Source of the DNA: Acidimicrobiaceae bacterium
Lineage (GTDB): Bacteria > Actinomycetota > Acidimicrobiia > Acidimicrobiales > Poriferisodalaceae
Length of the DNA: 64,000 bases
Assembly (NCBI GenBank): GCA_002705305.1
Contig: PAHW01000002.1
Coordinates: 26,392 to 90,391, forward strand
Direction of reading: 5' to 3'
Within the stretch, counting starts at the first letter, position 1. Each line of letters begins with the position of its first letter. The notes beneath the pieces were generated by a model. It saw nothing but the letters and a program-made list of their open reading frames with translations. It was not told the origin of the DNA and made no database searches. Of the stretch, positions 3,043-44,451 are shown piece after piece. A program made the position numbers and the translations under genes.

Positions 3043-3145
3043 GTGTCATGCCTCCGCAGTAGAGGTGTCAGCTACATGTGAGGCAAGAACGTTGACCCGG
3101 GTTCCGAATTCCACGTTGACATCGTACGGAGTAAGCCGCGAACTC

Positions 3146-3619: not shown

Positions 3620-3749
3620 GGCCCTACTTTGCCATTCCAGTTTGGCTAGTTCGATTTCTCTTCCTAAGAAATGCAAGTTGTCGTAGTTGCGAGAAGTCTG
3701 AACCAGGTAACGGGAATCAGTAGATGAATCATGGGTACGCTTTCGAAGC

Positions 3750-13749: not shown

Positions 13750-13885
13750 GTGATTTGTTTTCTGTTACGCAAGTAAAGAAATTGGCTTGGATGAAAGGGT
13801 CAAGTTCCTATTGTGGTCTGAAACAGCGTTGCCCCCCAACACGACGCAGCGACCGGTAATTGATGGTATTCGACGCGACGACGCC

Positions 13886-14407: not shown

Positions 14408-14425
14408 CGCGGGCAGAATAGAGCT

Positions 14426-29192: not shown

Positions 29193-30488
29193 ATGGTCGA
29201 CCCCGACTATCTAAAATTTGACACGCTGTCGCTTCACGCTGGACAAGAACCGGATCCGACTACTGGTTCTCGTGCGGTACCGATTTACCAGACGACTTCA
29301 TACAGCTTTGTGGACACCGAGCAGGCCGCAGGATTGTTCAATCTTGAACAACCGGGGCATATCTACAGTCGCATCTCCAACCCGACAGTTGCAGTGCTCG
29401 AAGAGCGAATAGCTGCCCTAGAGGGAGGGGTTGGCGCGGTTTGCACCGCTAGTGGCATGGCTGCATTCCATCTGGCAGCAGCGACGATTATGAGCGCAGG
29501 TAACCACGTGGTGGCTAGCCGCAATATTTACGGCGGTACCCACAACATGTTGAACCTCACAATGCCCAGATTTGGAATCACTACAACTTTCGTCGACCCG
29601 CGAGATCCCAAGGCATGGCGTTCCGCGATCACTCCGGAGACCCGCGTCCTATTTGCCGAAACCCTAGGCAACCCAGGAATAGAAGTGCTCGATGTGCCCT
29701 TAATCGCTGAGATCGCGCACGAACATGGCCTCCCATTAATGGTTGATGCGACCTTCACAACTCCCTATTTGATGAAACCCATCGATCTTGGCGCCGACAT
29801 CGTGATGCACTCAGTTACGAAATTTTTGGGTGGCCATGGCATCGCATTGGGCGGGGTGATCGTTGACGGTGGCAGATTTGACTGGGCCGCGAACGACAAA
29901 TTCCCAACGCTTTCCCAACCCTACGACGGGTATCACGGCATCAGCTTTACCGATGAATACGGTCATCAGGCCCTGTCAATGCGCGCGAGAGCGGAAGGGC
30001 TTCGAGATTTTGGTGCGGCGATGAGCCCCACCAACGCATTCCATCTGTTGCAAGGAATCGAAACCCTCCCCTTGAGAATGAAGCGCCATGTCGAGAACAC
30101 CGACTCAGTAATCACATTCCTCGAAGGACATGATGCTGTCACCTGGGTAAGCCACCCTTCCGTCTCCACTCACCCCGACCATGAACTAGCCAAACGACTT
30201 CTCCCCAAAGGAGCCGGCGCGATTTTCTCGTTCGGTATTGCGGGAGGCCGAGAAGCCGGCTGTCGATTCATCGAAAACGTTCAACTTGCTTCCCATCTAG
30301 CCAACGTCGGTGACGCCAAAACCCTCGTACTTCACCCGGCCTCCACCACCCACCAACAACTCAGCGCCGAAGACCTAGTGGCAGCCGGGGTAGGTGAGGA
30401 CCTAATTCGCCTATCTGTAGGTTTAGAGGATCCTGAAGACATCATCGCGGATTTGAGTCGAGCCCTTCGCGCTTCCCAAAAGGGGTAG
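29193..30488 (+). CDS. metY: O-acetylhomoserine sulfhydrylase / aminocarboxypropyltransferase (PLP-dependent)
   Basis: Contains FDTLSLHAGQEPDP..GSRAVPIYQTTSY, the PLP-lysine motif HSVTKFLGGHG and C-terminal IRLSVGLED. Start is at ATG 29193. Confidence 0.85.
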   Translation: MVDPDYLKFDTLSLHAGQEPDPTTGSRAVPIYQTTSYSFVDTEQAAGLFNLEQPGHIYSRISNPTVAVLEERIAALEGGVGAVCTASGMAAFHLAAATIMSAGNHVVASRNIYGGTHNMLNLTMPRFGITTTFVDPRDPKAWRSAITPETRVLFAETLGNPGIEVLDVPLIAEIAHEHGLPLMVDATFTTPYLMKPIDLGADIVMHSVTKFLGGHGIALGGVIVDGGRFDWAANDKFPTLSQPYDGYHGISFTDEYGHQALSMRARAEGLRDFGAAMSPTNAFHLLQGIETLPLRMKRHVENTDSVITFLEGHDAVTWVSHPSVSTHPDHELAKRLLPKGAGAIFSFGIAGGREAGCRFIENVQLASHLANVGDAKTLVLHPASTTHQQLSAEDLVAAGVGEDLIRLSVGLEDPEDIIADLSRALRASQKG

Positions 30489-30493
30489 GTGTA

Positions 30494-31282
30494 ATGAATA
30501 TTGAATGTCGAGGCGAAGCAGTCAATTTTGCGACCGGTGGTGTTGAGGTCGGACGTGATCTTCCTCTAGTTGTGCTGGTACACGGCGCCGGTATGGACCG
30601 AACGGTTTGGAGTCAGCAAACTCGATACCTCGCTCACCACGGTTTTGCTGCGATGGCCTTAGACCTACCAGGTCACGGCGAATCAGGCGGAGAACCCCTT
30701 TCATCGATAGGGGAAATGGCGGATTGGGTATCTGAGGTCATCGACGGAATCGACCAAGGACCCGCCCGCCTCATCGGTCACTCCATGGGAAGTCTGGTTT
30801 CTTTGGAAGTAGCGGCCCGGCATCCCGGCGTTGTGGAACGACTTGTTCTATTGGGGACCGGCGCTGCGATGCCTGTGCATCCCGAGTTACTCGGAGCTGC
30901 CGAAAGAAACGAGGTTTTGGCTCCACAACTCATTACGAGTTGGGGACACGGAACCCGAGCCCACATCGCCGGGAACCCTGCCCCTGGTCTCTGGATGCGG
31001 AGCGGATGTCAAGCTCTGCTCGAAAGAGCAGCCGACGGAGTGATTTTCAACGACCTCGCCGCCTGTAACTCATATGAGGCGGGAGATGTTGCCGCGCTCA
31101 TTACATGCCCGATTACCGTCGTCGTTGGCAGCGAAGACAAAATGACCCCGCCCCGGGCCACATCACAGCTGGTTGCGGGCTTATCTGATGTTGATCTAAA
31201 GCATCTAGACGGAATAGGCCACATGATGATGATTGAAGCGCCGGATCGTATACGAGACATACTTTTAGGGGCATTGCAGTAA
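30494..31282 (+). CDS. Alpha/beta hydrolase
   Basis: HGAG oxyanion segment, GHSMGS nucleophile elbow and a C-terminal GHMMMIE His region. Confidence 0.75.
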   Translation: MNIECRGEAVNFATGGVEVGRDLPLVVLVHGAGMDRTVWSQQTRYLAHHGFAAMALDLPGHGESGGEPLSSIGEMADWVSEVIDGIDQGPARLIGHSMGSLVSLEVAARHPGVVERLVLLGTGAAMPVHPELLGAAERNEVLAPQLITSWGHGTRAHIAGNPAPGLWMRSGCQALLERAADGVIFNDLAACNSYEAGDVAALITCPITVVVGSEDKMTPPRATSQLVAGLSDVDLKHLDGIGHMMMIEAPDRIRDILLGALQ

Positions 31283-31351
31283 CTCGGGGCGACAAAGAGG
31301 CCTGATCAGTGTCATGATCAAGCAACCTTCATTCAAATAAAAGGGGGACTC

Positions 31352-31876
31352 ATGGCAGTGGACCGTTTCCCGGTCGAGGCTTCGCACATTTTGATGTTTG
31401 CTAGGTCCATCGGAGACACCAACCCGATTTATTACGACGAGGCTCACGCGACTTCGACAGCGGTCGGGTCGATAATTGCCCCGCCGACATTCGCACAAGC
31501 GAGTGCGCAATTTGATCCGGACTATGTCCTTCGCCCGAAGGCGGGACAAAAATGGTTCGGTAGCGGAGCGACGCCTTCTGGCGCAGCGACCGCGAAGAAG
31601 GAAGAGGCGTCGGACTCTGACGGAGATGGAAAGACGTCGGGATCTTCGGCGGGAGGGCTCCACGCCGAACAACATTTCACCTATCACAGGCATCTGAAGC
31701 CCGGTGATGTCCTCACCGCCGAGACAAAGCCGGGTGAAAGCTGGGAGAAAGAGTCGAAACGAGCTGGGGTCTTGAAATTCAGCGAGAGCATCACCGAATA
31801 TCGAGATGAAGATGGTGAGTTGGTCATTACTGCGCGAGGCGTCGGTGTGGTGACTGAGAAAGTCATCGAGCAGTAG
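31352..31876 (+). CDS. MaoC-like hotdog protein, N-terminal-type subunit (HadA/ChsH-like)
   Basis: 174 aa with FARSIGDTNPIYYDE. A Gly/Ser/acidic low-complexity insert lies between the hotdog elements. It sits directly upstream of the MaoC dehydratase subunit. Confidence 0.6.
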   Translation: MAVDRFPVEASHILMFARSIGDTNPIYYDEAHATSTAVGSIIAPPTFAQASAQFDPDYVLRPKAGQKWFGSGATPSGAATAKKEEASDSDGDGKTSGSSAGGLHAEQHFTYHRHLKPGDVLTAETKPGESWEKESKRAGVLKFSESITEYRDEDGELVITARGVGVVTEKVIEQ

Positions 31877-31888
31877 GGGAGAAGACAA

Positions 31889-32308
31889 GTGGCATTAGAT
31901 ACAAGCGAAATCAAAGTCGGCGATTCGTATTCAGAAATGATCGTCGAGGACCTCACCCGGACCCAGATCGTTCAATACGCGGGCGCATCTGGGGATTACA
32001 ACCCTGTGCACAGCGACGAGAAATTCGTGACTGAGGTAGCGGGATACCCCACGGTGTTCGCCCACGGCATGCTTACGATGGGAATGACCGGACGGATGAT
32101 CACCAACTACGTGGGAGACGGTCAGTTGACCTATTACGGCGTGCGGTTCGTTAATCAGGTCTGGCCGGGTGACACGTTGACTGCCAGAGCCGAAATAGCA
32201 GCCATCCGCGAAGAGAATGGCGAGACGCTGGTGGATTTGGCTATTTCAACTACCAACCAAGACGAAAACTTTGTTCTAACAGGTAACGCGACCGCTAGAG
32301 CCGCCTAA
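31889..32308 (+). CDS. MaoC-family (R)-specific enoyl-CoA hydratase subunit
   Basis: 139 aa, GTG start, with the hydratase motif YAGASGDYNPVHSDEKF. Confidence 0.75.
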   Translation: MALDTSEIKVGDSYSEMIVEDLTRTQIVQYAGASGDYNPVHSDEKFVTEVAGYPTVFAHGMLTMGMTGRMITNYVGDGQLTYYGVRFVNQVWPGDTLTARAEIAAIREENGETLVDLAISTTNQDENFVLTGNATARAA

Positions 32309-32359
32309 AACCCAGATCGCTCACTAAAGACGGTCGCCAAACGTCCAAAAACGAGGGAT

Positions 32360-33616
32360 CTATCCCTTGGCTCGTCCCGCGTACCCAAACAATTTTCCGG
32401 CCACTTTGCGAATCTGGATCTCCTCTGCGCCTTCGGTGATCCGATAGCGCCTGTGATGTCTGTATATGTGTTCGAAGGGCATGCTTCGGCCGTATCCAAC
32501 TCCACCGCAACTCTGCATCGCTCGGTCTGCGGCGTCGCAACAAAATCTGTTTCCTCGGTAGTTACACATGGCCACCCGATCAGTTATCTCCATGTGGTCG
32601 ACTCCCTCGTCCATCTCCCAAGCTGTTTTCCAGATCAACGCTCGGATCATTTCAGCTTCCGTGTACAACTCGGCTAAGGGAAACTGGATCGCCTGGTTTT
32701 GGGAGAGCGGTTTTCCGAAGGTGGTGCGACCATTTACATAGTCAACGGCGACGTCAATGCAATGAAGGCCTGCACCTACTGAAGACGCGGCTTGTCGGAT
32801 CCGATTCTCATGAACAAACAGCTGAGCAGTTTGAAGTCCTCTAGCTTCCTCTCCCAAGATGTCGTCATTGTGAATACGAACGTCGGTTAGGCGGACATGG
32901 GCATGATCTGTTGGCATGTTGAAGGTCCACATGAATTCTTCAACCTTGAATCCCGGTGAATCCACCGGAACGATGAAGCATGTGATCCCATGACCCTCGC
33001 CTGGATTTCCGGACGTCCTCGCAAAGATGTAGTCATGAGTCGCGTGATGAAGTCCTGTGTTCCAGTATTTCTCGCCATTTATCACCCATTCGTCACCGTC
33101 GCGCACGGCCGTGGTCTCCATCCAAGTGGCATCGGAGCCGTGAAGAGGCTCAGTAAGCCCAAACCCGATACGCGCTGTCCCTTCGAGCATTTTGGGAATC
33201 CAATATTCTTTCTGATCTTCTGAACCGAATTTTTCCATCATCAGTACGGTCGGAAAATTACCGATGACGGAGTTTTCGTTCTGAAGGTCGTTGTGAAGGC
33301 CGAGCCCTTTGCGAGCCAAATGTTCTCTGACTATGGCCATCCCAAGATTTGTACCGTTCTGACCGCCGAAACGTTTTGGAAGATGCCAACGCAAGAAACC
33401 CGCGGCGTCGGCCTCGCTACGCATCCGGCCAAGGAGTTGCTCCCACTCGGCGTTGGGTAGGCCATCCCTATGCCAGTCAGTGCGCGAGTCTTCGCGTCGA
33501 TGATCAAAGAATCGTATGTTGTCGTTTTCGTTCTCGATCGGCTTTATTACGTCCTCGATGAACTGGTCAAGATCATCGAGCAATGTTTGTATGTCAGAGG
33601 GAATCGTGAAGTCCAT
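32360..33616 (-). CDS. Acyl-CoA dehydrogenase (FadE2 / ACAD10-11-like type)
   Basis: GFGLTEPLHGSDAT and C-terminal ITEGAEEIQIRKV. ATG 33616 (MDFTIPSDIQ) is preferred over the ORF-track start at 33646. Confidence 0.85.
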   Translation of the reverse strand: MDFTIPSDIQTLLDDLDQFIEDVIKPIENENDNIRFFDHRREDSRTDWHRDGLPNAEWEQLLGRMRSEADAAGFLRWHLPKRFGGQNGTNLGMAIVREHLARKGLGLHNDLQNENSVIGNFPTVLMMEKFGSEDQKEYWIPKMLEGTARIGFGLTEPLHGSDATWMETTAVRDGDEWVINGEKYWNTGLHHATHDYIFARTSGNPGEGHGITCFIVPVDSPGFKVEEFMWTFNMPTDHAHVRLTDVRIHNDDILGEEARGLQTAQLFVHENRIRQAASSVGAGLHCIDVAVDYVNGRTTFGKPLSQNQAIQFPLAELYTEAEMIRALIWKTAWEMDEGVDHMEITDRVAMCNYRGNRFCCDAADRAMQSCGGVGYGRSMPFEHIYRHHRRYRITEGAEEIQIRKVAGKLFGYAGRAKG

Positions 33617-33644
33617 AGGCAGCGAACGTATACGGTCGGACCTC

Positions 33645-34250
33645 ATGGTGTTGCCAATTGTTGTTTGGTCGGACTTTCTGTGACCCTGGTGTCATTTAGC
33701 GCGAGCCCGGGCGGCTCGTCTTGAACAACGACACGACGTAGCTATTTCGTGGTTGCCATACGAGTTACATCCCGAGATTCCCGAGGGCGGTGTTCCTAAC
33801 CATCGTCAATTCTCGGCGCTGCGCACGATTGCTGAAGAACTCCAAGTAACCCTGGTGCCGCCAACAACTTTTTATCCAACAAGGCGCGCCCATCAGGCAG
33901 CCCTCGTGGTCGAGCATGCCTCCCCTGAAGAAGCTGGCATCTATCACGATCGGCTATATGCCTCGATTTGGGAAAATCATCGAGACATCGAAGATCCTGA
34001 GGTGTTAGCCCAGCTAGCGGCTGACCTAACCGTCCCTTCAGGCCTTATCGAGCGGGTTGTTACCAACAACGAATTGTGGCCAGCTGTGTTGTCGTCAATG
34101 CAACGAGCCCACGAATGGGGAGCGACGGGCACCCCGAGTTGGGTAATAGACAACAAACTGATGGTGCCCGGTTTACAAGACGACGATTTTTTTGATCGCG
34201 TCATTGAACGGCTGAGCAATATCAAAAGCGGCGAAGAGAACTCCAAATAA
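33645..34250 (+). CDS. DsbA/FrnE-like thiol:disulfide oxidoreductase, candidate selenoprotein (UxxC; TGA 33681..33683 read as Sec)
   Basis: The ORF-track piece 33753..34250 is DsbA/FrnE-like but lacks the active site. The same frame upstream reads MVLPIVVWSDFL-TGA-PWCHLARARAARLEQRHDVAISWLPYELHPE. This restores the I.VWSD..CPWC signature with TGA at the first Cys position. Confidence 0.7.
33701..33719 (+). promoter_or_regulatory. Candidate bacterial SECIS hairpin for the DsbA-like gene
   Basis: GCGAGCC-CGGGC-GGCUCGU: 6 Watson-Crick pairs plus one G-U pair, with a 5-nt G-rich loop. The loop starts 24 nt after the UGA. A possible lower stem pairs GUGUC (33689..33693) with GACAC (33730..33734). 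Confidence 0.55.
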
Positions 34251-34284
34251 TCATCTGAGTGTCGCCTCGGGTACTGTCCTGAGT

Positions 34285-35535
34285 ATGCAGCCAACCTATT
34301 CACGAGACGCAGAGGAATACCGCGACAAGATCCAAGACTTCATTACTGAGCACCTACCCGAGGACTGGGAAGGTATTGGGTCCTTAACGGGAGACGCTAA
34401 AGCTGAGTTCGTTCGTCAATGGAGGCAGATTCTTAGCGAAAATCATTTTCTCGCGACTATGTGGCCCACCGACTACGGCGGCCCTGGGTTGACAGTTAAC
34501 GAGAATGTGATTATCGCCGAGGAATTCACGAAAGCCGGGTTGCCGACCGGTGGTTCCAACGATGGTTTCGGTATCGGCATGGTTGGCAACACCCTTATCG
34601 AATGGGGTACTGAGGAACAAAAGAAGCACTATCTCCCACGAATTCTTGATGGCGAAGATATTTGGTGTCAGGGGTATTCGGAACCGGGAGCGGGTTCGGA
34701 CTTAGCCAATCTTGGCTGTCGAGCTGAACTTGACGGCGACGAATGGGTTCTGAACGGACAAAAAATCTGGACATCGAGCGGACATTTGGCGAATTGGATA
34801 TTTGTCCTTGGTCGAACCGCTCCCGATGACGCGAAACATCAAGGCATTACATTTTTCTTGTGTCCCATGAACCAGGAAGGAATTGAGGTTCGGCCCATCG
34901 TTAACATCGCGGGCCACAGTCATTTCAACGAAGTGTTTTTCTCGAACGCGAGGGTGCCGAAGGGCAACGTCGTAGGTCAAGTAAATGGCGGTTGGGCCGT
35001 CGCCATGACGTTGCTGGGCTACGAGCGTGGGTTTGGGGCCACGACGACCTACTTCCGTTATCGATCTGAGTTGGATCGTTTGGTTGAAATGGCCCAACAA
35101 CGCGGTCGGACAGAGGACCCGAACATTCGTCAACGTTTGGCCTGGTGTCATAGCAAAGTCGAAATCATGCGATGGCTCGGCCAACAAGTGTTGACGTCTT
35201 TCTTGAATGGTGAACCGCCAGGGCCCAAGAGTTCAATAGGAAAACTCAATTGGAGCGAATATCACCGCCACGTCACGGAGTTGTCAATCGACATTCTTGG
35301 AGCCGAAGCGATGGTGGTCGAGGGAGATGATGCTCTCGCCGCTGGATTAGGAGCCGCAGACGCAGGCACGCCCAACACGACTTCAGCTTGGATCAATAGT
35401 TTTCTATCAGCGAGATCCGGAACGATCTACGCGGGTACTAGCCAAGTGCAGCGCAACATCATTGGCGAACGAATCTTAGGGTTGCCTAAAGAGCCGCGAG
35501 CTGATGAAGGTCCCTGGAACGAGACGCTTCGCTGA
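34285..35535 (+). CDS. Acyl-CoA dehydrogenase
   Basis: 416 aa with CQGYSEPGAGSDLA and C-terminal GTSQVQRNIIGERILGLPKEP. Confidence 0.85.
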   Translation: MQPTYSRDAEEYRDKIQDFITEHLPEDWEGIGSLTGDAKAEFVRQWRQILSENHFLATMWPTDYGGPGLTVNENVIIAEEFTKAGLPTGGSNDGFGIGMVGNTLIEWGTEEQKKHYLPRILDGEDIWCQGYSEPGAGSDLANLGCRAELDGDEWVLNGQKIWTSSGHLANWIFVLGRTAPDDAKHQGITFFLCPMNQEGIEVRPIVNIAGHSHFNEVFFSNARVPKGNVVGQVNGGWAVAMTLLGYERGFGATTTYFRYRSELDRLVEMAQQRGRTEDPNIRQRLAWCHSKVEIMRWLGQQVLTSFLNGEPPGPKSSIGKLNWSEYHRHVTELSIDILGAEAMVVEGDDALAAGLGAADAGTPNTTSAWINSFLSARSGTIYAGTSQVQRNIIGERILGLPKEPRADEGPWNETLR

Positions 35536-35536
35536 A

Positions 35537-36121
35537 GTGTTGGTAGGTCTGTGCGGTGGATCATGTGCGGGGAAGACAACGTTGGCGCGCGCGCTTTTAG
35601 CGGAACGTCCTGACGCCGCATTGCTCGAATTTGATGACTATTACTATGACCTGTCGGAAGTCCCCATTGAGGAACGGGCAAAGGTCAACTACGACCACCC
35701 TGACGCCATAGACGTTCAACTTTTGGTGACCCACATGGATGAGTTAGCTGCGGGACGTGCGGTGGAGGTGCCTGACTACGATTTCGCTACCCACACTCGT
35801 CCCGGTGGCGTACATCGTGTGGAGGCCTCCTCACTCGTCATCGTCGACGGCCTATTGCTGCTGGCAGTTCCCGAATGTCGAGAACGACTAGATCTAAAAG
35901 TTTTTGTAGATGCTCCCCGCGAAGTGCGTCTTGCTCGGCGACTTGAGAAAGACGTGAGGGACAGAGGACGTGACCGCGATGGCGTAATTAGACAGTTCGG
36001 TGACTCAGTAGAGCCAATGCACCAAACCCTTGTTTCGCCTAGTTCGGAGTTCGCGGACTTGTGCTTTACCTACCCTTGGGATGTACAACACGCAACACAG
36101 GCCATCCTTGGGTACCTCTAG
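35537..36121 (+). CDS. udk: Uridine kinase
   Basis: P-loop GGSCAGKTT, then FDDYYYD, NYDHPDAID, VPDYDF..H.R and FVDAPREVRLARRLEKDVRDRGRD. GTG 35537 lies 1 nt after the upstream stop and is preferred; ATG 35504 (ORF track) is the alternative. Confidence 0.7.
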   Translation: MLVGLCGGSCAGKTTLARALLAERPDAALLEFDDYYYDLSEVPIEERAKVNYDHPDAIDVQLLVTHMDELAAGRAVEVPDYDFATHTRPGGVHRVEASSLVIVDGLLLLAVPECRERLDLKVFVDAPREVRLARRLEKDVRDRGRDRDGVIRQFGDSVEPMHQTLVSPSSEFADLCFTYPWDVQHATQAILGYL

Positions 36122-36145
36122 CTGCCGTCGAAGGGTCCGAGATCG

Positions 36146-36556
36146 CTATTCACCGATAAATTCGACCCAGTTACCATCAGGGTCTTCAACCATTCCCACG
36201 ACTACGCCGGGACGTACTTCTCTTCTGTCCCAGATAATCGGCGTGCCAACTGCGGCACACGCATCAAGAGCCGACTGAACACTGGGAACGGACAGAGTGA
36301 AGTAACGCATCCCTGAAGCGCCCATCATCCCTCCGCTAGCTCCAGGCGCTACCTCTTTCGTGGGAACCACGATCTTAAGCAAGCTCTCGTTGGCCCAAAC
36401 GCGATGCATCGCGGCGACCCCTAAAGCCTCCATGTTCAAGGTGGCTTCAAACTCAAGCCCAATTACGTCGCGGTAAAACTCCAGCATCTCGTCGCCGTTT
36501 GTCGTCACAATTCCGAGATCAAATCCACCCTTAGTGAAACTGTTAGCCACCATCAC
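36146..36556 (-). CDS. VOC (glyoxalase/bleomycin-resistance/dioxygenase) family protein
   Basis: 136 aa with paired beta-alpha-beta-beta-beta module-like halves and a C-terminal DPDGNWVEF motif. Confidence 0.7.
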   Translation of the reverse strand: MMVANSFTKGGFDLGIVTTNGDEMLEFYRDVIGLEFEATLNMEALGVAAMHRVWANESLLKIVVPTKEVAPGASGGMMGASGMRYFTLSVPSVQSALDACAAVGTPIIWDRREVRPGVVVGMVEDPDGNWVEFIGE

Positions 36557-36576
36557 TCCTAACTACTCAAGGTTCC

Positions 36577-37374
36577 TCAGTCGTAGCTCACGCCGAGACC
36601 AGCTCGAGCATCAGTCTGGATACCATAGTTAGGAATGGGATAACGCAAGCCGTTTCGTGCGAGAAATTCCATTCCCTCAACTGCGACAAGTAAATCTTCG
36701 GGGCGAAGTGCCATCAGAAGCTCGTCTTCCATCACTCCGCCGTAACGTCTTTCAGCGAAGCATGGAATTGACAAACTTGGCTCTCCGGTACTTAAGGCCC
36801 GCCCCCAACTGTCCGCGCAAGCTGACTCCCCAACGCATCCCCAGTCCAGTTTCTTGTAGCCGCGCCATTGCAGACCATTGATCAGCAGAATCATTTGAGC
36901 GGGAGTCGCGTAAACGAGACAAATATCAGGTGGATCAAGCCGTTTTGAAGATAAAGGTGAAACAGCCATGGCCGCATAAGTTCCGAAAGGCACGCAGTCC
37001 ATCGCTTCTTGGTGTGCCGAACTGTCATCAAGGGTTTCGAACCAGACTCCCTGCATGCGCTCGCCAGACAACCAATCTTCGTCCTGTGGGTGAAGGCCTA
37101 TGACGGCTCCGCATTGATCGCCGACCAGGTCAGCACGGGTGATACCGACGGTCCAGTTCAGTCGTGATGCCATTCCGACGATTTGGTCCGTTGTGTGGAT
37201 GTCGTCGGGTCGGCGAATCCGAGGCACTGACTCCATCTCGTCGACCGTCGCAAACAGCTTCATTCCGATCGGGGTAGTGCGGATTCGGAGGAGAGCCTGA
37301 AGGCGAGCTAGTAAATCATCCCAATCCATCTGTCCTGTTCGCAGATGCACCGGCTGTTCTTCAGTTTCACTCAT
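36577..37374 (-). CDS. DUF169-like protein
   Basis: The start is set at ATG 37374 (MSETEEQPV...). Pattern IGMKLF ... DCVPFG ... CADSWG recalled as DUF169. The ORF-track N-terminal extension overlaps the divergent gene. Confidence 0.5.
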   Translation of the reverse strand: MSETEEQPVHLRTGQMDWDDLLARLQALLRIRTTPIGMKLFATVDEMESVPRIRRPDDIHTTDQIVGMASRLNWTVGITRADLVGDQCGAVIGLHPQDEDWLSGERMQGVWFETLDDSSAHQEAMDCVPFGTYAAMAVSPLSSKRLDPPDICLVYATPAQMILLINGLQWRGYKKLDWGCVGESACADSWGRALSTGEPSLSIPCFAERRYGGVMEDELLMALRPEDLLVAVEGMEFLARNGLRYPIPNYGIQTDARAGLGVSYD

Positions 37375-37406
37375 GGGTCCCCCTGGCTTAGGCAGCCAAC
37401 CTACCG

Positions 37407-37431
37407 CGCGCATCGCGTGGCTCGATGCGCG
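37407..37431. promoter_or_regulatory. Perfect 9-bp inverted repeat (candidate operator or 5'-UTR hairpin)
   Basis: CGCGCATCG-N7-CGATGCGCG in the 70-nt divergent spacer between the starts at 37374 (-) and 37445 (+). Confidence 0.3.
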
Positions 37432-37444
37432 ACAGAATGAAGCA

Positions 37445-38293
37445 ATGAAAACTGTCATGCTTCTGCACCCAGGAGAAATGGGGGCCTCGATCGGTTCGGC
37501 CATCGTCGCGAATGGGTACACCGTGTTGTGGGTTCCCGAAGGTCGAAGCCAAGCAACGAGGCAACGAGCAGCAGCAGCCGGATTTGAGGAAGCCGAGTTA
37601 CTTGACGCTCTGAGTCGAGTTGACATCGTCATTTCCGTAGTGCCGCCCGGCGCCGCAATTCAAGTTGCTCAACAGGTGGCCGACGGCGGTTTCGAGGGGA
37701 CGTATGTGGATATGAACGCCATTTCTCCTCGTAGCGCCAGTCAGATAGCTACTGCATTTTCCGATTATGTCGACGGTGGCATAGTCGGACCGCCCGCCAG
37801 GGAGACCGGAACAACGCGACTCGCGTTGAGTGGCCCCAAAACTGATGAAATCAAAGCGCTCTTCGCTGGTTCGTTCATAGAAGTAGTTGATTTAGGTATC
37901 GAAATTGGCACGGCCTCCGCCTTCAAGGTTGGTTTTGCAGCCTGGACAAAAGGGTCCGGAGCGCTCTTGCTCTTGATATGTGCCTATGCGCGGTCCGCAG
38001 GGATCGAAAACGAATTGTTTGAAGAATGGGAACGACGAGGCATGACGCAGAAAGCGCAGTCCATTCGCGCAGCCGAGCAAATGGCCCCAAAGAGTTGGCG
38101 CTTTGGTGACGAAATGCGCCAAATATCGGACGCTTTGGAAGATGCGGGATTGGGTATCGGGTTCTTTTTACACGCAGGTGAAACTTTTGACAGACTCGCT
38201 CACATAAACACTGAGTCCGATCGAAAGCTCAGCTTGGAAGAAGTGACGCGAGAGCTGCTTGCGGGAAGGAGTTTGCGTGACCCATTCGATTAG
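37445..38293 (+). CDS. NAD(P)-binding 6-phosphogluconate-dehydrogenase-like oxidoreductase (DUF1932-type C-terminus)
   Basis: The start is set at ATG 37445 (MKTVMLLHPGEMGASIG, a Rossmann-like N-terminus). The C-terminal helical domain resembles beta-hydroxyacid dehydrogenase-like proteins. Confidence 0.55.
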   Translation: MKTVMLLHPGEMGASIGSAIVANGYTVLWVPEGRSQATRQRAAAAGFEEAELLDALSRVDIVISVVPPGAAIQVAQQVADGGFEGTYVDMNAISPRSASQIATAFSDYVDGGIVGPPARETGTTRLALSGPKTDEIKALFAGSFIEVVDLGIEIGTASAFKVGFAAWTKGSGALLLLICAYARSAGIENELFEEWERRGMTQKAQSIRAAEQMAPKSWRFGDEMRQISDALEDAGLGIGFFLHAGETFDRLAHINTESDRKLSLEEVTRELLAGRSLRDPFD

Positions 38294-38354
38294 GGTGACG
38301 CCTCGCGTCGCTAAGCGACAGATATTGCCACTGTGACCAGTTGAGGAGATCCCA

Positions 38355-39137
38355 ATGGCTGACGGCCTTCGTACTGAAATTCACGGCAACGTGGGAATGG
38401 TCATCATGGACCGCCCCCCACACAACTTTTTGAATTTTCGACAAATTCATGACATAGCTGATGCGCTCGGGGAAATGGAAAATGACATGTCCATCCGCTG
38501 CGCGGTGCTGGCCGCAGAAGGCCGATCATTTTGTGCCGGCGCAGACTTCGCCGGTGACGGAGTAGGTGGAGGTGACGACGAAGTCGTCGGCGGTGACGCG
38601 ACGCTCGCCCTTTACCAAGGGTCAGGACGTCTATTCGACGTAACACTTCCCATAGTTGGGGCCATACAGGGTCCAGCGGTTGGCGGAGGGTTGGGCTTAG
38701 CCATGGTGCCTGATATCAGAATCACGTGTCCCGATGCGCGTTTCTCGGCCAACTTTGCGGCGCTGGGAATCCACCAAGGATTCGGTATGAGTGTCACGCT
38801 CCCAGAACTTCTAGGTCCCTCAAGAGCAGCGCAGGTTCTCTACAGCGCAAAGAGATATAAGGGCGAAGAAGCGGTCCTTATTGGACTCGCCGATGAATGT
38901 GTTCCTTCGTCAGAAGTGAGGGACCGTGCCCTAGAAGTTGCTTCAGACATAGCGGCGAACGCCCCGCTGGCCCTCCGTGCAATCAAGTCGACGCTAAGGC
39001 TCGGTCTTGGTGACCGTGTACGAGAAATCACACAGCGCGAAGCTCAGCTCCAAGCTGAATTGTCCGCTAGTTCTGATGCCAAAGAGGGGATTGCTTCAGT
39101 ATCAGAACGACGACCAGGCAATTTCACCGGACAGTAA
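38355..39137 (+). CDS. Enoyl-CoA hydratase/isomerase (crotonase fold)
   Basis: FCAGADF and GPAVGGGLG oxyanion-hole segments. Paralogue of 10673..11473. Confidence 0.85.
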   Translation: MADGLRTEIHGNVGMVIMDRPPHNFLNFRQIHDIADALGEMENDMSIRCAVLAAEGRSFCAGADFAGDGVGGGDDEVVGGDATLALYQGSGRLFDVTLPIVGAIQGPAVGGGLGLAMVPDIRITCPDARFSANFAALGIHQGFGMSVTLPELLGPSRAAQVLYSAKRYKGEEAVLIGLADECVPSSEVRDRALEVASDIAANAPLALRAIKSTLRLGLGDRVREITQREAQLQAELSASSDAKEGIASVSERRPGNFTGQ

Positions 39138-39187
39138 GCACCGCCGAATTCGTCGCAAAGAACGAACCGCAGAGTCACGAGAACAAG

Positions 39188-40060
39188 ATGCGAATTGTGG
39201 TCACCGGCGTCAGCGGTCTTATCGGATCGGCGTTGGCTACCGAATTAGGAATTCAGGGCCACGAAGTGATAGGGGTCTCTCGTTCTCCCTCAGCCGGATC
39301 GGTCGGCTGGGAAGAAGTAACTGCGACCCTCATGAACGACGTTGACGCAGTAGTCAACTTAGCGGGAGAAACAATCGCGGGCCGATGGACCAGCCAAAAG
39401 AAAAGGCGGATAACGCGGAGCCGTTTAGAGGCCGCCGAATCAGTTAGTAACGCCATACGCGATTCGGATCGACCTCCATCTGTGCTGATCCAAGCTTCAG
39501 CGTCGGGCTACTACGGAAGTCGCGGAAACGAAGTTCTTGACGAGCGCTCAAGCCCTGGCTCTGGTTTTTTAGCTGATCTTTGCCGCGAATGGGAAGCGAC
39601 CGCGGAGACCGTTCGCACTGTCAACACAAGGCTCGTACTAGCAAGATTTTCGGTTGTCCTCGCAGCAGAAGGTGGGGCTCTCTCGCCACTCAAGACTTTA
39701 ACTAGCGTGGGTCTTGGTGGTCCCTTGGGGCGAGGTAGACAATGGTGGAGTTGGATATCGCTTCATGACACAGTGCGCTCCTTGTTTCATCTTCTCGAAA
39801 CCGATATTTCTGGACCGGTAAATGTCAGTTCCGAAACACCGGTGCAACAGCGAGATTTCTCGAAAACGTTGAGCAAGGTTTTGCGTCGCCCCTGCTTAGT
39901 GCCGACTCCTGAAATAGCGCTTAAGGCGGTGCTTGGCGAAATGGGTCAAACACTCTTGCTGGACTCCACGCGTCTCCGCCCGTCCGTGCTAACTACCAGC
40001 GGATTCAAATTCGAAGAGGGCGACCTCGAAAGCGCACTGAGACGGATCTTTAATACTTAA
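39188..40060 (+). CDS. TIGR01777-like NAD-dependent epimerase/dehydratase family protein (SDR39U1-like, DUF1731 C-terminus)
   Basis: MRIVVTGVSGLIGSAL N-terminus, with GRQWWSWISLHD in the C-terminal half. Confidence 0.7.
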   Translation: MRIVVTGVSGLIGSALATELGIQGHEVIGVSRSPSAGSVGWEEVTATLMNDVDAVVNLAGETIAGRWTSQKKRRITRSRLEAAESVSNAIRDSDRPPSVLIQASASGYYGSRGNEVLDERSSPGSGFLADLCREWEATAETVRTVNTRLVLARFSVVLAAEGGALSPLKTLTSVGLGGPLGRGRQWWSWISLHDTVRSLFHLLETDISGPVNVSSETPVQQRDFSKTLSKVLRRPCLVPTPEIALKAVLGEMGQTLLLDSTRLRPSVLTTSGFKFEEGDLESALRRIFNT

Positions 40061-40098
40061 GCTTCAACTCGTCCCCACGATTAGAAAGAGCCTCGACC

Positions 40099-41043
40099 TT
40101 GACACTTCAACCCGATACGCAGGCGTTCATTGAAATGGTTGAGGCTGCCAATGCCGACGCGCCACCCCGATCTGAGCAGTCACCTGAAGATGCGCGAAAC
40201 GGCTACCAGGCATTGGCTCATATTCTTGGACCGGGTCCAGAACCCGGCGGAGGGATAGAAGATTTTCAAATTCCAGGACCGACTGGACAGACACCAGTGC
40301 GGATCTACCGACCACAGGGAGAGGGACCTCATCCAACGCTGACCTTCTTTCACGGCGGAGGGTTTGTCGTAGGCGACTTGGAAACTCACGACAAGGAATG
40401 TCGGCTGCTTTGCGAGAAGGCCAACTGTCTCGTCTTGGCCGTTGACTACCGATTAGCCCCAGAGGCGCCCTTCCCGGCCGCGGTCGAAGACGCTTGGTCA
40501 GCGGTCCAATGGGTTGTCGATCATGGCGCCGAAATAGGCATCGATACCACCCGTGTAGCAGTAGGAGGTGATTCGGCCGGTGGCAATCTCGCCGCTGTCA
40601 TGGCCCTGATGGCTCGCGACGCTGGAATCGACCTGAGACTGCAAATGTTGGTCTACCCAGCCACCGATGCCTCCAAACAGTACGACTCATTCGTTGAAAA
40701 TAAAGACGGTCCGCTGCTGACGGTGGAAGTCATTGACTGGTTCTGGTCGCACTACGTCGGTCATCGAACTGCCGACGAAACGCGAGGTGACTGGCGGTTC
40801 TCTCCCGCATTGGCCGCTAGCCACGCCGGTGTTGCCTCCGCATATGTGGCAACGTGTTCAGCTGACCCGCTTCGCGATGAGGGAAACGCATACGCAGAAC
40901 TTCTCGCGGCGGCAAATGTGCCAGTGCATCATTCAACGTTCGAGGGTGAGCCGCACGTCCTATTTCAAATGTTTAATGTTTGCGATGGCGCAAAAACACT
41001 CATTGAAGAGTGCGCAGCAGCCCTCACGGCGGCATTCAAATGA
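40099..41043 (+). CDS. Alpha/beta hydrolase, hormone-sensitive-lipase-type esterase
   Basis: HGGGF oxyanion motif and GDSAGGNLA nucleophile elbow. TTG start. The stop overlaps the next start (ATGA). Confidence 0.8.
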   Translation: MTLQPDTQAFIEMVEAANADAPPRSEQSPEDARNGYQALAHILGPGPEPGGGIEDFQIPGPTGQTPVRIYRPQGEGPHPTLTFFHGGGFVVGDLETHDKECRLLCEKANCLVLAVDYRLAPEAPFPAAVEDAWSAVQWVVDHGAEIGIDTTRVAVGGDSAGGNLAAVMALMARDAGIDLRLQMLVYPATDASKQYDSFVENKDGPLLTVEVIDWFWSHYVGHRTADETRGDWRFSPALAASHAGVASAYVATCSADPLRDEGNAYAELLAAANVPVHHSTFEGEPHVLFQMFNVCDGAKTLIEECAAALTAAFK

Positions 41044-43250: not shown

Positions 43251-43321
43251 CAGCGAGCGATCTAAGACCTATAGGTGTGATTCCGAATTTTCAACTCACG
43301 AGACACGAGTAGCTTCATGCC

Positions 43322-44416
43322 ATGGCGGTAACCAACCACGACAGCGAACTGGACATCGACCCGATGTTCATCTCTACTCACAACGACCTATGGCTGCGAC
43401 TTGGTAGCTGCGGAACCTGGTGGACCGGCCCCCAACGCGTAGCCGCAATGTCGGAAGTCCGCGCGGCATTCGAATGTGACCTATGTTCCGAGCGTTCTGA
43501 AGCGCTGAGCCCGTTAATGATTGAAGGAGTTCATGACTCGGTATCCGAGCTTCCTCCAGAAGCGGTGGATTTGGTTCATAGATTGACGACCGATCCGGGT
43601 CGCCTAACCCAACCGTGGGCGAACACAATCATCGACGTTTTAGGCGAAGAACGCTATGTGGAAATCGTCACAGTCGTTTGTGTCCAATATGTCATAGAGA
43701 GCTTCGCCCGAAATCTTGGACTACCACTCCCAGACCTGCCTGAGGCGGGCGACGGAATTCCCAATCACGTGCGACCAACCGATGTCGGAGACGTCGGCGC
43801 ATGGGTCAGTCAAACGGTTGACAAAAAATTGGCAAATGTCTCCAGAGCCGCATCTCTAGTTCCCGACACAGAAGTGTTATGGCGGGACCTGGTGCAATGT
43901 CACTACAGCCGCGGACCACAATTTGCCGAACTGGTCTGGGACCGAGCACTCGCTAGACCCCAAGTCGAATTGTTGGCATCCACCGTTTCTGCACTTAATG
44001 AGTGCTTCTACTGAACTGCGGCCCATGTATCGCTGCTCCGTGCGAGCAGCGAAGCCAGCGACACCGAGGTCGCAATTGAGCAACTGGAAGATGGAGCTCA
44101 GGTCGAACACGGCTCCGCCCTCGTGCGCTACGCGGAATCAGCAGTTCAACGAGACAGTGATCTAACTGAATCTCGTACCCGCCTGTTGCGACTTATCGGG
44201 CCACAAGCGCTCGTCGAAGCTTCGGCGACAGTTTCGGCTTTCGAGGGGCTTAACCGCATTGCCGACGCAACAGGCATCCAGCTCGATGCCGGATTAGCGG
44301 ACGAATCTGCTGATTTCAGAAACGATCTAGGGATTAACTCTTACGCGGGTGCGGTGAACACCAAATCAAACGGATCTCCCGATCGAGCCGACAGCGTCCT
44401 TGGAATTTTTCGCTGA
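43322..44416 (+). CDS. AhpD / carboxymuconolactone-decarboxylase (CMD)-like protein, candidate selenoprotein (CxxU; TGA 44012..44014 read as Sec)
   Basis: ORFs 43322..44014 and 44123..44416 are in the same frame, with no other stop between them. Read-through gives ...LLASTVSALNECFY-TGA-TAAHVSLLRASS..., the AhpD CxxCxxxH motif with TGA at the second Cys. Confidence 0.7.
44030..44052 (+). promoter_or_regulatory. Candidate bacterial SECIS hairpin for the AhpD-like gene
   Basis: UCGCUGCUC-CGUGC-GAGCAGCGA: a perfect 9-bp stem with a 5-nt loop containing GU. The loop starts 24 nt after the UGA. Confidence 0.6.
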
Positions 44417-44451
44417 AGGTCACATAAAGACCCTCGGGTTGGCGCGGCCCG

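What the first reader, a model, noticed from the sequence alone, without database searches (positions are those of the whole stretch)
33645..34250. DsbA/FrnE-like gene with in-frame TGA at the first active-site Cys (U-P-W-C): candidate selenoprotein
The ORF caller only finds 33753..34250 (TTG start). That piece is a DsbA/FrnE-like thioredoxin-fold protein that appears to have lost its N-terminal redox motif. Reading the same frame upstream gives ATG(33645) GTG TTG CCA ATT GTT GTT TGG TCG GAC TTT CTG TGA CCC TGG TGT CAT TTA GCG. This translates as MVLPIVVWSDFL-U-PWCHLARARAARLEQRHDVAISWLPYELHPE. It reproduces the FrnE/DsbA beta1-active-site signature (I.[VI]WSD..CPWC......L) exactly, with TGA (33681..33683) in place of the nucleophilic Cys codon. 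A GC-rich stem-loop (33701..33719, loop CGGGC) lies at the distance expected for a bacterial SECIS. Sec/Cys exchange at thioredoxin-fold CxxC sites is the classic hallmark of selenoproteins, and standard annotation would miscall this gene as truncated.
Basis: partly seen in the sequence, partly recalled or inferred. Interest (0 to 1): 0.85.

Follow-up and report, generated by a model that had tools for sequence, protein, structure and literature searches.

The report
Selenocysteine DsbA/FrnE-like redox gene, mis-annotated
This is very probably a real selenoprotein gene: a cytoplasmic DsbA/FrnE-like redox enzyme from a marine Acidimicrobiales bacterium with selenocysteine (UGA) in place of the first active-site cysteine; public annotation truncates it, but the family has been known since 2005.

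Summary
Window 33645..34250 (+) is one 201-codon gene. It has an in-frame TGA at codon 13 (33681-33683), and the U-P-W-C motif sits where Cys-containing homologues have CPWC.

- **Conservation:** all 23 related species-level genomes found (marine Acidimicrobiales/Acidimicrobiia MAGs, 48-82% aa identity) keep TGA at exactly this codon. The protein is conserved on both sides of it.
- **SECIS hairpin:** a 7-bp hairpin (33701-33719, loop CGGGC) starts its loop 24 nt after UGA and meets every published bacterial SECIS criterion. Its synonymous sites are strongly constrained (p = 6e-5). Cys homologues lack it.
- **Second selenoprotein gene:** 43322..44416 (NCBIfam AhpD_rel_CFYUT, motif CFY-U-TAAH) carries a hairpin with the same 24-nt spacing and a CGUGC loop.
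- **Stop codon usage:** TGA is otherwise the commonest true stop codon here, so there is no genome-wide reassignment.

Not shown: selA, selB, selC and selD in the same genome. None lies in the window or the fetched flanks.

DsbA-like UxxC selenoproteins (COG2761/PF01323) were described from the Sargasso Sea in 2005. This is therefore a new clade of a known kind, only 24-30% identical to those sequences. Interest is modest.

The parts
33645..34250 (+). Complete CDS of the DsbA/FrnE-like selenoprotein (201 codons including Sec13; stop TAA at 34248-34250).
   Evidence: Translation. Pfam PF01323 covers residues 5-187 = profile positions 2-190 of 191, E 2.3e-26. tblastn matches query residues 1-201 in L001-L023.
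33645..33647 (+). Start codon (ATG here; ATG or GTG at the same position in most orthologues, a TTG one codon downstream in L019/L020).
   Evidence: Alignment of the upstream regions. In-frame stop codons lie immediately upstream in L013 and L017, which excludes a longer N-terminus.
33681..33683 (+). UGA codon 13, read as selenocysteine; the first residue of the U-P-W-C redox motif (33681-33692).
   Evidence: TGA at this codon in 24/24 orthologues. It aligns with the first Cys of CPWC in Cys homologues and in FrnE, PDB 5cnw.
33701..33719 (+). Bacterial SECIS-type hairpin. Stem 33701-33707/33713-33719 (7 bp), apical loop CGGGC 33708-33712, 24 nt between UGA and the loop. It lies inside the codons for A-R-A-R-A-A-R.
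   Evidence: Fold (-11.0 kcal/mol). RNAalifold consensus. Pair counts. Synonymous-site constraint. Absent from Cys homologues. Meets the consensus quoted in PMC13188914.
34131..34136 (+). Codons for Thr163-Pro164, the invariant G-T-P motif. By analogy with DsbA-family proteins this is the cis-Pro loop that faces the active site.
   Evidence: G162, T163 and P164 are invariant in alignment A1. The assignment as the cis-Pro loop rests on established knowledge of the thioredoxin/DsbA fold and was not modelled here.
33617..33644 (.). 28-nt divergent intergenic region between the acyl-CoA dehydrogenase start (33616, minus strand) and this gene. It contains the conserved near-palindrome GAACGTATACGGTC (33624-33637).
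   Evidence: GAACGTATAC[CG]GTC is invariant in the window and L001-L018. No sigma-70 consensus match was found. Its function is inferred only (operator and/or promoters for leaderless transcripts).

Best explanation
Window 33645..34250 encodes a 201-residue cytoplasmic thioredoxin-fold oxidoreductase of the DsbA/FrnE type. It has no signal peptide, because strand beta-1 starts at residue 3. Its nucleophilic active-site residue is selenocysteine.

**Proposed mechanism.** During translation the UGA at codon 13 reaches the A site. The hairpin 33701-33719, whose loop begins 24 nt downstream and carries the conserved G-G/U, recruits SelB-GTP-Sec-tRNA(Sec). Sec is inserted instead of termination. 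The product carries a U13-P-W-C16 centre that cycles between selenol/thiol and selenylsulfide, and so reduces or isomerises disulfides or other oxidised thiol adducts of cytoplasmic substrates. C16 is the only Cys in the protein.

The gene sits between two acyl-CoA dehydrogenase genes, probably co-transcribed with the downstream one, in a strongly syntenic acyl-CoA-metabolism cluster.

**Shown here:**
- gene continuity across the TGA;
- the Sec/Cys pair;
- conservation of the TGA;
- a conserved hairpin under RNA-level selection;
- a second selenoprotein gene with the same SECIS geometry in the same window.

**Inferred:** actual Sec insertion, SelB binding, the redox chemistry and the physiological substrate.
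For: 1. **One gene.** The Pfam DSBA profile is matched end to end across the TGA. The closest solved structure is Deinococcus FrnE, where VDIWSDIACPWCYIGKRR aligns with IVVWSDFL-U-PWCHLARAR.
2. **Sec/Cys pair.** Cys homologues carry CPWC at the aligned position.
3. **Conservation of the TGA.** It is present in 24/24 genomes at 48-82% aa identity. LPI[IV]VWSD[FY]L is conserved upstream, while 4-fold sites upstream vary freely.
4. **SECIS criteria.** The hairpin has a 5-nt loop, a 7-bp stem, G at loop position 2 followed by G/U, 24-nt spacing and -11.0 kcal/mol. The published limits are loop 3-9, stem 4-16, spacing 16-37 and energy <= -7.5.
5. **RNA-level selection.** Mean 4-fold-site entropy is 0.71 bits in hairpin codons 19-25 and 1.73 bits at 43 other sites (Mann-Whitney p = 6e-5). 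The paired third positions of codons 19, 21 and 23 are the three most constrained sites in the gene. Pair 30-42 switches A-U/G-U/G-C.
6. **Specificity.** Ten Cys homologues have 0-1 bp at the same geometry.
7. **Independent second gene.** 43322..44416 scores 374.8 bits against NCBIfam NF041238 'AhpD_rel_CFYUT (seleno)protein' (cut-off 175). Its TGA is conserved in 11 genomes. Its hairpin has the same 24-nt spacing and a CGUGC loop (z = -2.57). The two SECIS sets align without gaps, with 97% of cells paired and 0/500 shuffles reaching the covariation score.
8. **Pattern scan.** A scan for TGA-N18-30-CG[GT]G[CT] with a stem of >= 6 bp in ORF context, over the window plus 23 loci on both strands, returns only these two gene families, always at spacing 24.
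9. **TGA is a normal stop.** It ends 25 of 54 long ORFs in the window.
10. **Lineage precedent.** The AhpD-related gene of this lineage was already called a selenoprotein in 2005 (AACY01574522). Sec machinery is reported for all 84 genomes of the sister order Actinomarinales (bioRxiv 10.64898/2026.04.03.716425).
Against: - No tRNA-Sec, selA, selB or selD lies in the 64-kb window or in about 0.5 Mb of flanks from related genomes. The trait is therefore not demonstrated for this genome.
- No Rfam SECIS family matches, even at E <= 10.
- The fold energy of the region alone is no better than shuffles.
- Within the DsbA set alone, covariation is modest. The paired-cell percentage and covariation score do not exceed shuffles for the 12-pair version, and the lower stem is unsupported.
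- Part of the hairpin could follow from the GC-rich Ala/Arg codons.
- There is no experimental evidence for Sec insertion in any member of this clade.
Confidence: 0.9

Rival explanations
1. The gene is a truncated or decaying DsbA-family gene. Translation starts downstream (TTG 33753, or the equivalent of the 'MARARAARLE' starts annotated in databases), the TGA is a real stop or nonsense mutation, and the protein lacks its redox motif.
For: This is what every public gene call shows: 113-184 aa products. The mechanical ORF list also starts at 33753.
Against: The TGA and the 12 codons upstream are conserved as protein in 24 species-level genomes, with free synonymous change. A nonsense mutation would not persist as TGA only at 48% identity. 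The Pfam domain would lose strand beta-1 and its active site. In-frame stops directly upstream of the ATG/GTG in L013 and L017 mark a real start there.
Confidence: 0.02
2. The UGA is decoded, but not as selenocysteine. Examples are context-dependent read-through by a near-cognate tRNA (Trp or Cys) or a local recoding signal unrelated to SelB, so the protein carries W/C at position 13.
For: The Sec machinery is not demonstrated for this genome. Rfam SECIS models do not match.
Against: The recoded position is the catalytic Cys of a CxxC centre, the classic Sec/Cys pair. The hairpin fits the SelB-type bSECIS consensus in loop, G position, spacing and energy. The same geometry occurs in a gene belonging to a curated selenoprotein family. 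A Trp at the nucleophile position would inactivate the enzyme, and a Cys would be simpler to encode as TGY.
Confidence: 0.05
3. The hairpin is only a by-product of the Ala/Arg-rich peptide ARARAAR (GCN/CGN codons are self-complementary) and has no role in recoding. Any SECIS lies elsewhere or is unconventional.
For: The region's MFE is not better than dinucleotide shuffles. Most stem positions are first or second codon positions fixed by the peptide.
Against: Third-position (4-fold) sites that pair in the stem are nearly invariant (C 23/23, G 20/21, G 20/21), while 43 other 4-fold sites average 1.73 bits (p = 6e-5). The ARARA peptide itself is found only in the TGA-containing forms; Cys forms read YLGRDRT and have no stem. 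An unrelated peptide (SLLRASS) in the second gene builds a hairpin with the same spacing and loop. L017 changed both its peptide and its hairpin together.
Confidence: 0.04

Closest known systems
DsbA-like selenoprotein family ('DsbA-like protein', COG2761, UXXC; 'DsbA-like protein form 1', PF01323) from Zhang, Fomenko & Gladyshev 2005, Sargasso Sea (PMC1088965); listed in the 2026 review PMC13188914.
   Same: Same Pfam domain. Sec sits at the first position of the CxxC motif (U-P-W-C), close to the N-terminus with no signal peptide. The N-terminal context is the same; for example AACY01178397 reads IVVWSDFLuPWCY. It comes from a marine planktonic metagenome, and the SECIS lies just downstream in the coding region.
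   Different: Only 24-30% identical to the full-length Sargasso sequences, so it is a separate clade. Its SECIS and the ARARAAR peptide are clade-specific. Here the clade is assigned to marine Acidimicrobiales/Acidimicrobiia MAGs and to a fixed gene neighbourhood between two acyl-CoA dehydrogenases. No NCBIfam model reaches its cut-off.
FrnE of Deinococcus radiodurans (PDB 5cnw, 5cp1, 5co3, 5coh, 5e59, 5xwh), a cytoplasmic DsbA-family disulfide oxidoreductase.
   Same: It is the best solved-structure match (E 1.7e-9), aligned over residues 5-180. WSDxxCPWC and the G(T/V)P loop line up. Like this protein it is cytoplasmic, with no leader peptide.
   Different: FrnE uses Cys, not Sec. It is longer (260 aa). 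From memory of the FrnE literature, it has a C-terminal tail with a second Cys pair used for recycling. The window protein has a single Cys (C16) and a Cys-free tail.
AhpD-related selenoprotein NF041238 (AhpD_rel_CFYUT; 'hypothetical protein 1' of the Sargasso Sea study).
   Same: It is present in the same window (43322..44416) and in the same genomes. Its SECIS has the identical UGA-to-loop distance (24 nt) and the loop consensus CGKGC, so presumably the same SelB reads both.
   Different: It is an unrelated fold (CMD/AhpD). The motif is CxxU rather than UxxC, and Sec sits mid-protein at residue 231.
Escherichia coli fdhF-type SECIS (the reference bacterial SECIS).
   Same: It is a hairpin inside the coding sequence just 3' of UGA, with an exposed G followed by G/U in a small apical loop. 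Spacing is within the 16-37 nt consensus. The L017 variant even has a GGUC loop.
   Different: There is no sequence similarity and no Rfam SECIS hit. No bulged U was identified. Binding by SelB is not tested.

Membership tests
DsbA-like selenoproteins (form 1, UxxC) | DSBA-like thioredoxin domain (PF01323 / COG2761) | tested here: met
   PF01323, E 2.3e-26, 93.2 bits (cut-off 25.6), residues 5-187 = profile positions 2-190 of 191.
DsbA-like selenoproteins (form 1, UxxC) | In-frame UGA aligned with the first Cys of the CxxC motif of Cys-containing homologues (Sec/Cys pair) | tested here: met
   U-P-W-C against CPWC in P0041-P0047, L024-L029 and FrnE.
DsbA-like selenoproteins (form 1, UxxC) | UGA-containing orthologues in other organisms, with coding conservation on both sides | tested here: met
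   TGA in 24/24 genomes. Codons 2-12 are conserved while their synonymous sites vary.
DsbA-like selenoproteins (form 1, UxxC) | bSECIS downstream of UGA: loop 3-9 nt, upper stem 4-16 bp, G in the first two loop positions, 16-37 nt spacing, MFE <= -7.5 kcal/mol | tested here: met
   Loop CGGGC (5 nt), 7-bp stem, G at loop position 2 followed by G, 24-nt spacing, -11.0 kcal/mol. Conserved and under synonymous constraint.
DsbA-like selenoproteins (form 1, UxxC) | Sec-decoding machinery (selA, selB, selC/tRNA-Sec, selD) in the same genome | not testable with these tools
   None in the window or the fetched flanks, and the rest of the genome could not be read. Indirect support comes from a curated-family selenoprotein gene in the same window and from machinery reported in Actinomarinales.
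DsbA-like selenoproteins (form 1, UxxC) | Selenium actually incorporated (75Se labelling or mass spectrometry) | not testable with these tools
   An experiment is required.
FrnE-type cytoplasmic DsbA-family oxidoreductase | Sequence and fold similarity to FrnE, with the xPWC active site at the start of helix 1 and no signal peptide | tested here: met
   FrnE chains are the top PDB matches, E 1.7e-9, over residues 5-180. The protein begins directly with strand beta-1.
FrnE-type cytoplasmic DsbA-family oxidoreductase | C-terminal tail carrying a second Cys pair (a feature recalled from the FrnE literature, not checked in a paper here) | tested here: not met
   C16 is the only Cys, and the tail ...RLSNIKSGEENSK has none.
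Periplasmic DsbA (E. coli type) | N-terminal signal peptide and CPHC motif | tested here: not met
   The active site is at residues 13-16 with no leader, and the motif is UPWC.
HCCA isomerase / GST-kappa branch of PF01323 | Closest similarity to 2-hydroxychromene-2-carboxylate isomerases | tested here: inconclusive
   Only a weak match to 3fz5, E 0.0038, far behind FrnE. The UPWA/CPWA variants without a resolving Cys would suit a single-nucleophile chemistry.

The most novel reading that the evidence does not exclude
This clade may not be a general disulfide oxidoreductase. It could be a dedicated selenoenzyme of a conserved acyl-CoA/beta-oxidation-type gene cluster in marine Acidimicrobiales.

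The gene is fixed between two acyl-CoA dehydrogenase genes, next to MaoC hydratases and an enoyl-CoA hydratase, in all syntenic genomes. One sub-clade (L021-L023) has lost the resolving Cys (U-P-W-A). A separately described 'DsbA-like form 2' selenoprotein is fused to a crotonase. Together these hints would fit a single-selenol chemistry on CoA-linked or low-molecular-weight-thiol substrates, for example removing CoA or thiol adducts, or a GST-kappa/HCCA-isomerase-like reaction.

In addition, the fixed rule UGA-N24-CGKGY could serve as a lineage-specific key to read out the whole selenoproteome of this abundant ocean group.
Probability: 0.15. Interest if true: 0.55.

Novelty: new member of a known kind. 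Interest (0 to 1): 0.3.

Why it matters
- **Annotation:** the gene, and the AhpD-related gene 10 kb away, are split or truncated in every public assembly and protein cluster examined. The catalytic residue is therefore missing from databases for a widespread group of ocean bacteria.
- **Biology:** the result assigns a distinct clade of DsbA/FrnE-like selenoproteins to planktonic marine Acidimicrobiales. It implies that this lineage uses selenium, which I did not find stated in the searched literature outside Actinomarinales.
- **Method:** two unrelated genes share one SECIS geometry (24-nt spacing, CGKGC loop). This gives a simple lineage-specific search rule and a defined RNA target for SelB studies.

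It does not change what is known about selenoprotein families in general.

Tried and rejected
- **Rfam.** There was no hit in the window at gathering thresholds and no SECIS hit at E <= 10 around either TGA. Rfam's bacterial SECIS models are clade-specific, so this says little.
- **Extended lower stem** (columns 21-25/47-51, suggested by the single-sequence fold). It is not supported comparatively, with 12-16 of 24 sequences unpaired at three of the pairs, so it was dropped.
- **Covariance model R1** built from both SECIS sets. It finds only the two training sites in the window. It is too sequence-specific to generalise, so I used a geometric pattern scan instead.
- **Sec machinery.**
  - ARAGORN on the window and 23 loci found no tRNA-Sec.
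Against the window plus 80 loci it gave no hit except a weak GTPase match in an unrelated locus.
  - Extending 10 kb beyond the left window edge found nothing. The right-edge look-up found no record.
  - I read the SelD selenoprotein sequences of the Sargasso supplement looking for one with this lineage's SECIS signature and G+C content. All were low-GC types from other lineages.
  - I ran no further search on SelD. The word-based retrieval would return relatives of the query, not of this lineage, and same-genome linkage could not be established.
Fold statements therefore rest on Pfam and PDB sequence matches.
- **Genome-wide TGA reassignment** was rejected because TGA ends 25 of 54 long ORFs.
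- **Other in-frame TGA junctions** in the window (for example 13787-14407 / 14426-15190) are adjacent separate genes or antisense ORFs, not Sec sites.
- **Apparent ORF-free gaps** (3043-3749, 37372-38354) contain ordinary genes that my greedy gene map had missed.
Full report
**1. The observation**

The sequence is as described. ATG at 33645 opens a frame that reads MVLPIVVWSDFL, then TGA (33681-33683), then PWCHLARARAARLEQRHDVAISWLPYELHPE. The frame continues without another stop to TAA at 34248-34250. The mechanical ORF list reports only 33753..34250, with a TTG start.

A 7-bp hairpin (33701-33707 with 33713-33719, loop CGGGC) is the core of the predicted fold. It folds at -11.0 kcal/mol on its own. 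The energy of the 71-nt region is not better than shuffled sequence (z = -0.21). The hairpin by itself therefore proves nothing, and the case rests on comparison with other genomes.

**2. One gene, not a truncated one**

With U replaced by C, the 201-aa product matches the Pfam DSBA domain from profile position 2 to 190 of 191 (E 2.3e-26). The stretch upstream of 33753 supplies strand beta-1 and the active site.

The closest solved structure is FrnE of Deinococcus radiodurans (E 1.7e-9). Its VDIWSDIACPWCYIGKRR aligns with IVVWSDFL-U-PWCHLARAR.

In the 5.8-billion-protein collection, all 40 close relatives (54-99% identity) are annotated as N-terminally short products of 113-184 aa. Many begin 'MARARAARLE', immediately after the motif. 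The more distant relatives (33-41% identity) are full length and mostly carry VWSDYLCPWCY.

**3. Orthologous DNA**

A scan of one genome per species (GTDB) returned 23 loci with 48-82% aa identity. All come from marine metagenome-assembled genomes labelled Acidimicrobiales, Acidimicrobiaceae, Acidimicrobiia, MedAcidi-G3 or 'Ca. Microthrix sp. UBA...'.

- Every one has TGA, never TAA or TAG, at the codon corresponding to 33681.
- LPI[IV]VWSD[FY]L is conserved upstream and PW[CA] downstream.
- L013 and L017 have in-frame stops just upstream of the start codon, which fixes the start at the position of 33645.
- The next-closest loci (36-39% identity; soil and sediment Acidimicrobiales, and others) have TGC (Cys) there.
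- Four-fold degenerate sites in codons 4, 7, 9 and 14 vary freely (1.7-1.8 bits) while the amino acids stay fixed. This is the signature of translation on both sides of the TGA.

TGA is also the commonest ordinary stop in the window, ending 25 of 54 long ORFs. The genome has therefore not reassigned it.

**4. The hairpin as a SECIS**

RNAalifold recovers exactly the 7-bp stem as the consensus of the 24 sequences. The lower extension seen in the single-sequence fold is not conserved.

The stem lies in the codons for A-R-A-R-A-A-R, so I asked whether the RNA is constrained beyond the peptide.

- At 4-fold sites the hairpin codons average 0.71 bits, against 1.73 bits for 43 other sites (Mann-Whitney p = 6e-5).
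- The paired third positions of codons 19, 21 and 23 are the three most constrained sites of the gene.
- Pair 30-42 moves between A-U, G-U and G-C.
- The one orthologue whose stem is broken (L017) has a changed peptide (ARVRASS) and a new 6-bp hairpin with a GGUC loop, 20 nt from the UGA.
- Ten Cys homologues have 0-1 bp at the same geometry.

Against the published bacterial SECIS consensus (quoted from PMC13188914), all criteria are met:

| Criterion | Consensus | This element |
|---|---|---|
| Apical loop | 3-9 nt | 5 nt (CGGGC) |
| Upper stem | 4-16 bp | 7 bp |
| G in first two loop positions, usually followed by G/U | required | G at position 2, then G |
| Spacing from UGA to loop | 16-37 nt | 24 nt |
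| MFE | <= -7.5 kcal/mol | -11.0 kcal/mol |

Rfam has no matching family, even at E <= 10. This is the usual outcome for bacterial SECIS elements.

**5. Independent support inside the same window**

I looked for other genes that would be extended by reading through a TGA. One convincing case appeared. ORF 43322..44014 continues in frame through TGA 44012-44014 to 44416, giving the motif NECFY-U-TAAH.

- The read-through protein scores 374.8 bits against NCBIfam NF041238 'AhpD_rel_CFYUT, alkylhydroperoxidase-related (seleno)protein' (cut-off 175). It also has a CMD domain.
- Its TGA is conserved in 11 of the related loci.
- Downstream lies a 9-bp hairpin (44030-44052, loop CGUGC; z = -2.57).
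- The distance from UGA to the loop is again exactly 24 nt, and the loop consensus across both genes is CGKGC.

The two sets of sequences align without a gap. CCG-GCG around the loop is invariant, 97% of cells are paired, and the covariation score is reached by none of 500 shuffles.

A geometric scan (TGA, 18-30 nt, CG[GT]G[CT] loop, stem of >= 6 bp, open frame on both sides) covered the window plus the 23 loci on both strands. It returns only these two gene families, always with spacing 24.

The Sargasso Sea sequence AACY01574522 ('hypothetical protein 1', called a selenoprotein in 2005) is nearly identical to the L016 copy of this second gene. This lineage has therefore been in the selenoprotein literature, unnamed, for two decades.

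**6. What could not be shown**

No tRNA-Sec, selA, selB or selD lies in the window, in the roughly 0.5 Mb of flanks from related genomes, or in 10 kb beyond the left window edge. I could not read the rest of any of these genomes. The Sec machinery is thus inferred, not demonstrated.

The nearest published statement concerns Actinomarina, another order of the class Acidimicrobiia. A 2026 preprint reports selA, selB (divergent), selC and selD in all 84 complete genomes. In the searchable library I found no paper on selenoproteins in the planktonic Acidimicrobiales.

**7. Mechanism proposed**

- **Shown:** gene continuity, the Sec/Cys pair, conserved TGA, a hairpin under RNA-level selection, and a second gene with the same geometry.
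- **Inferred from established knowledge of bacterial Sec decoding:** SelB-GTP-Sec-tRNA(Sec) binds the apical loop while the UGA is in the A site, and Sec is inserted at residue 13.
- **Inferred from family membership:** the product is a cytoplasmic thiol-disulfide oxidoreductase or isomerase. It has no leader peptide, and its U13/C16 pair forms a selenylsulfide. C16 is its only cysteine.

The gene is flanked divergently by an acyl-CoA dehydrogenase gene (start 33616, 28 nt away). A second acyl-CoA dehydrogenase gene follows 34 nt downstream. The surrounding cluster holds MaoC-type hydratases, an alpha/beta hydrolase, DUF169 and an enoyl-CoA hydratase. This order is preserved in essentially all syntenic genomes. 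The substrate is unknown.

**8. Comparison with what is known**

'DsbA-like protein' (COG2761, motif UXXC, nine sequences) is one of the selenoprotein families reported from the Sargasso Sea in 2005 (PMC1088965). It is listed as 'DsbA-like protein form 1, PF01323, UxxC' in a 2026 review.

The published sequences share the N-terminal context; for example AACY01178397 reads IVVWSDFLuPWCY. Overall they are only 24-30% identical to the window protein. This gene is thus a member of the known family by every testable criterion, but it belongs to a separate clade. No NCBIfam model reaches its cut-off for it, which explains why pipelines truncate it.

It resembles FrnE in sequence and cellular location. 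It lacks a second Cys pair in its tail (a feature recalled from the FrnE literature), so I do not file it as an FrnE orthologue.

**9. Verdict**

Confidence that this is a genuine Sec-encoding gene is about 0.9. The residual doubt is the unverified machinery and the lack of any experiment.

It is a new member (a new clade) of a known kind. It is useful for annotation and for the selenium biology of marine Acidimicrobiales, but it would not surprise a specialist. Interest: 0.3.

The least ordinary features are:
- the strict shared SECIS geometry in two unrelated genes;
- the U-P-W-A sub-clade (L021-L023) that lacks a resolving Cys;
- the fixed position inside an acyl-CoA metabolism cluster.

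Noticed in passing
window 43322-44416 (+); TGA 44012-44014; hairpin 44030-44052: A second selenoprotein gene: an AhpD-related protein with motif CFY-U-TAAH. It matches NCBIfam NF041238 (374.8 bits) and has a CMD domain. Its TGA is conserved in 11 related genomes, and a 9-bp SECIS hairpin with loop CGUGC follows. Public gene calls split it into 230 + 119 aa.
   Followed up: yes
window 33681-33719 and 44012-44052; alignment A3: Both selenoprotein genes share one SECIS geometry: exactly 24 nt from UGA to a CGKGC loop closed by C-G, with the loop encoding Arg-Ala in both. A pattern scan for this geometry hit nothing else in about 0.5 Mb. It may be a lineage-specific SelB recognition rule.
   Followed up: partly
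window 33617-33644 (core 33624-33637): Only 28 nt separate the divergent start codons of the acyl-CoA dehydrogenase gene and the DsbA-like gene. The near-palindrome GAACGTATAC[CG]GTC is invariant in the window and L001-L018, and there is no sigma-70 consensus match. It could be an operator, or overlapping -10-like elements (TACGGT / TACGTT) for leaderless divergent transcripts. This is speculation.
   Followed up: partly
L021:10001-10594, L022:3639-4232, L023:10001-10633: A sub-clade of the selenoprotein has U-P-W-A, so the resolving Cys is replaced by Ala. The one other Cys is not positionally conserved between L021/L022 and L023. TGA and a hairpin (loop CGUGU) are retained. This suggests a single-selenol mechanism.
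   Followed up: partly
L017:10037-10096: The one orthologue without the standard stem has a different peptide (ARVRASS) and a replacement 6-bp hairpin, GGCGCG-GGUC-CGCGCU. It lies 20 nt from the UGA and has an fdhF-like GGUC loop.
   Followed up: partly
window 33693-33695 and 44024-44026 (A3 columns 19-21): In both selenoprotein genes a His codon (CAY) sits four residues after Sec (U-P-W-C-H and U-T-A-A-H). It may be coincidence, a catalytic feature, or part of the RNA signal.
   Followed up: no
L012 (PAOZ01000001.1): A contig labelled 'Methanobacteriota archaeon isolate SP175' carries the full syntenic Acidimicrobiales locus, with 86-91% identity in neighbouring genes. This is probably a mis-binned or mislabelled MAG.
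   Followed up: no
window 13787-15190 (+): Two adjacent genes, a hotdog/thioesterase-like ORF and a short-chain dehydrogenase, lie in the same frame separated by a single TGA. I considered this as a Sec site and rejected it: the dehydrogenase has its own start (MSQRLEGKTAVITGGG) and there is no redox motif at the junction.
   Followed up: partly
window 30000-45000 and L001-L023, L081-L084: The gene order is very strongly conserved across genomes: PLP enzyme, alpha/beta hydrolase, two MaoC-type hydratases, ACAD, DsbA-like, ACAD, uridine-kinase-like, glyoxalase, DUF169, enoyl-CoA hydratase ... penicillin-amidase-like, AhpD-related. The DsbA-like protein diverges much faster (48-82% identity) than its ACAD neighbours (mostly 82-96%).
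   Followed up: partly
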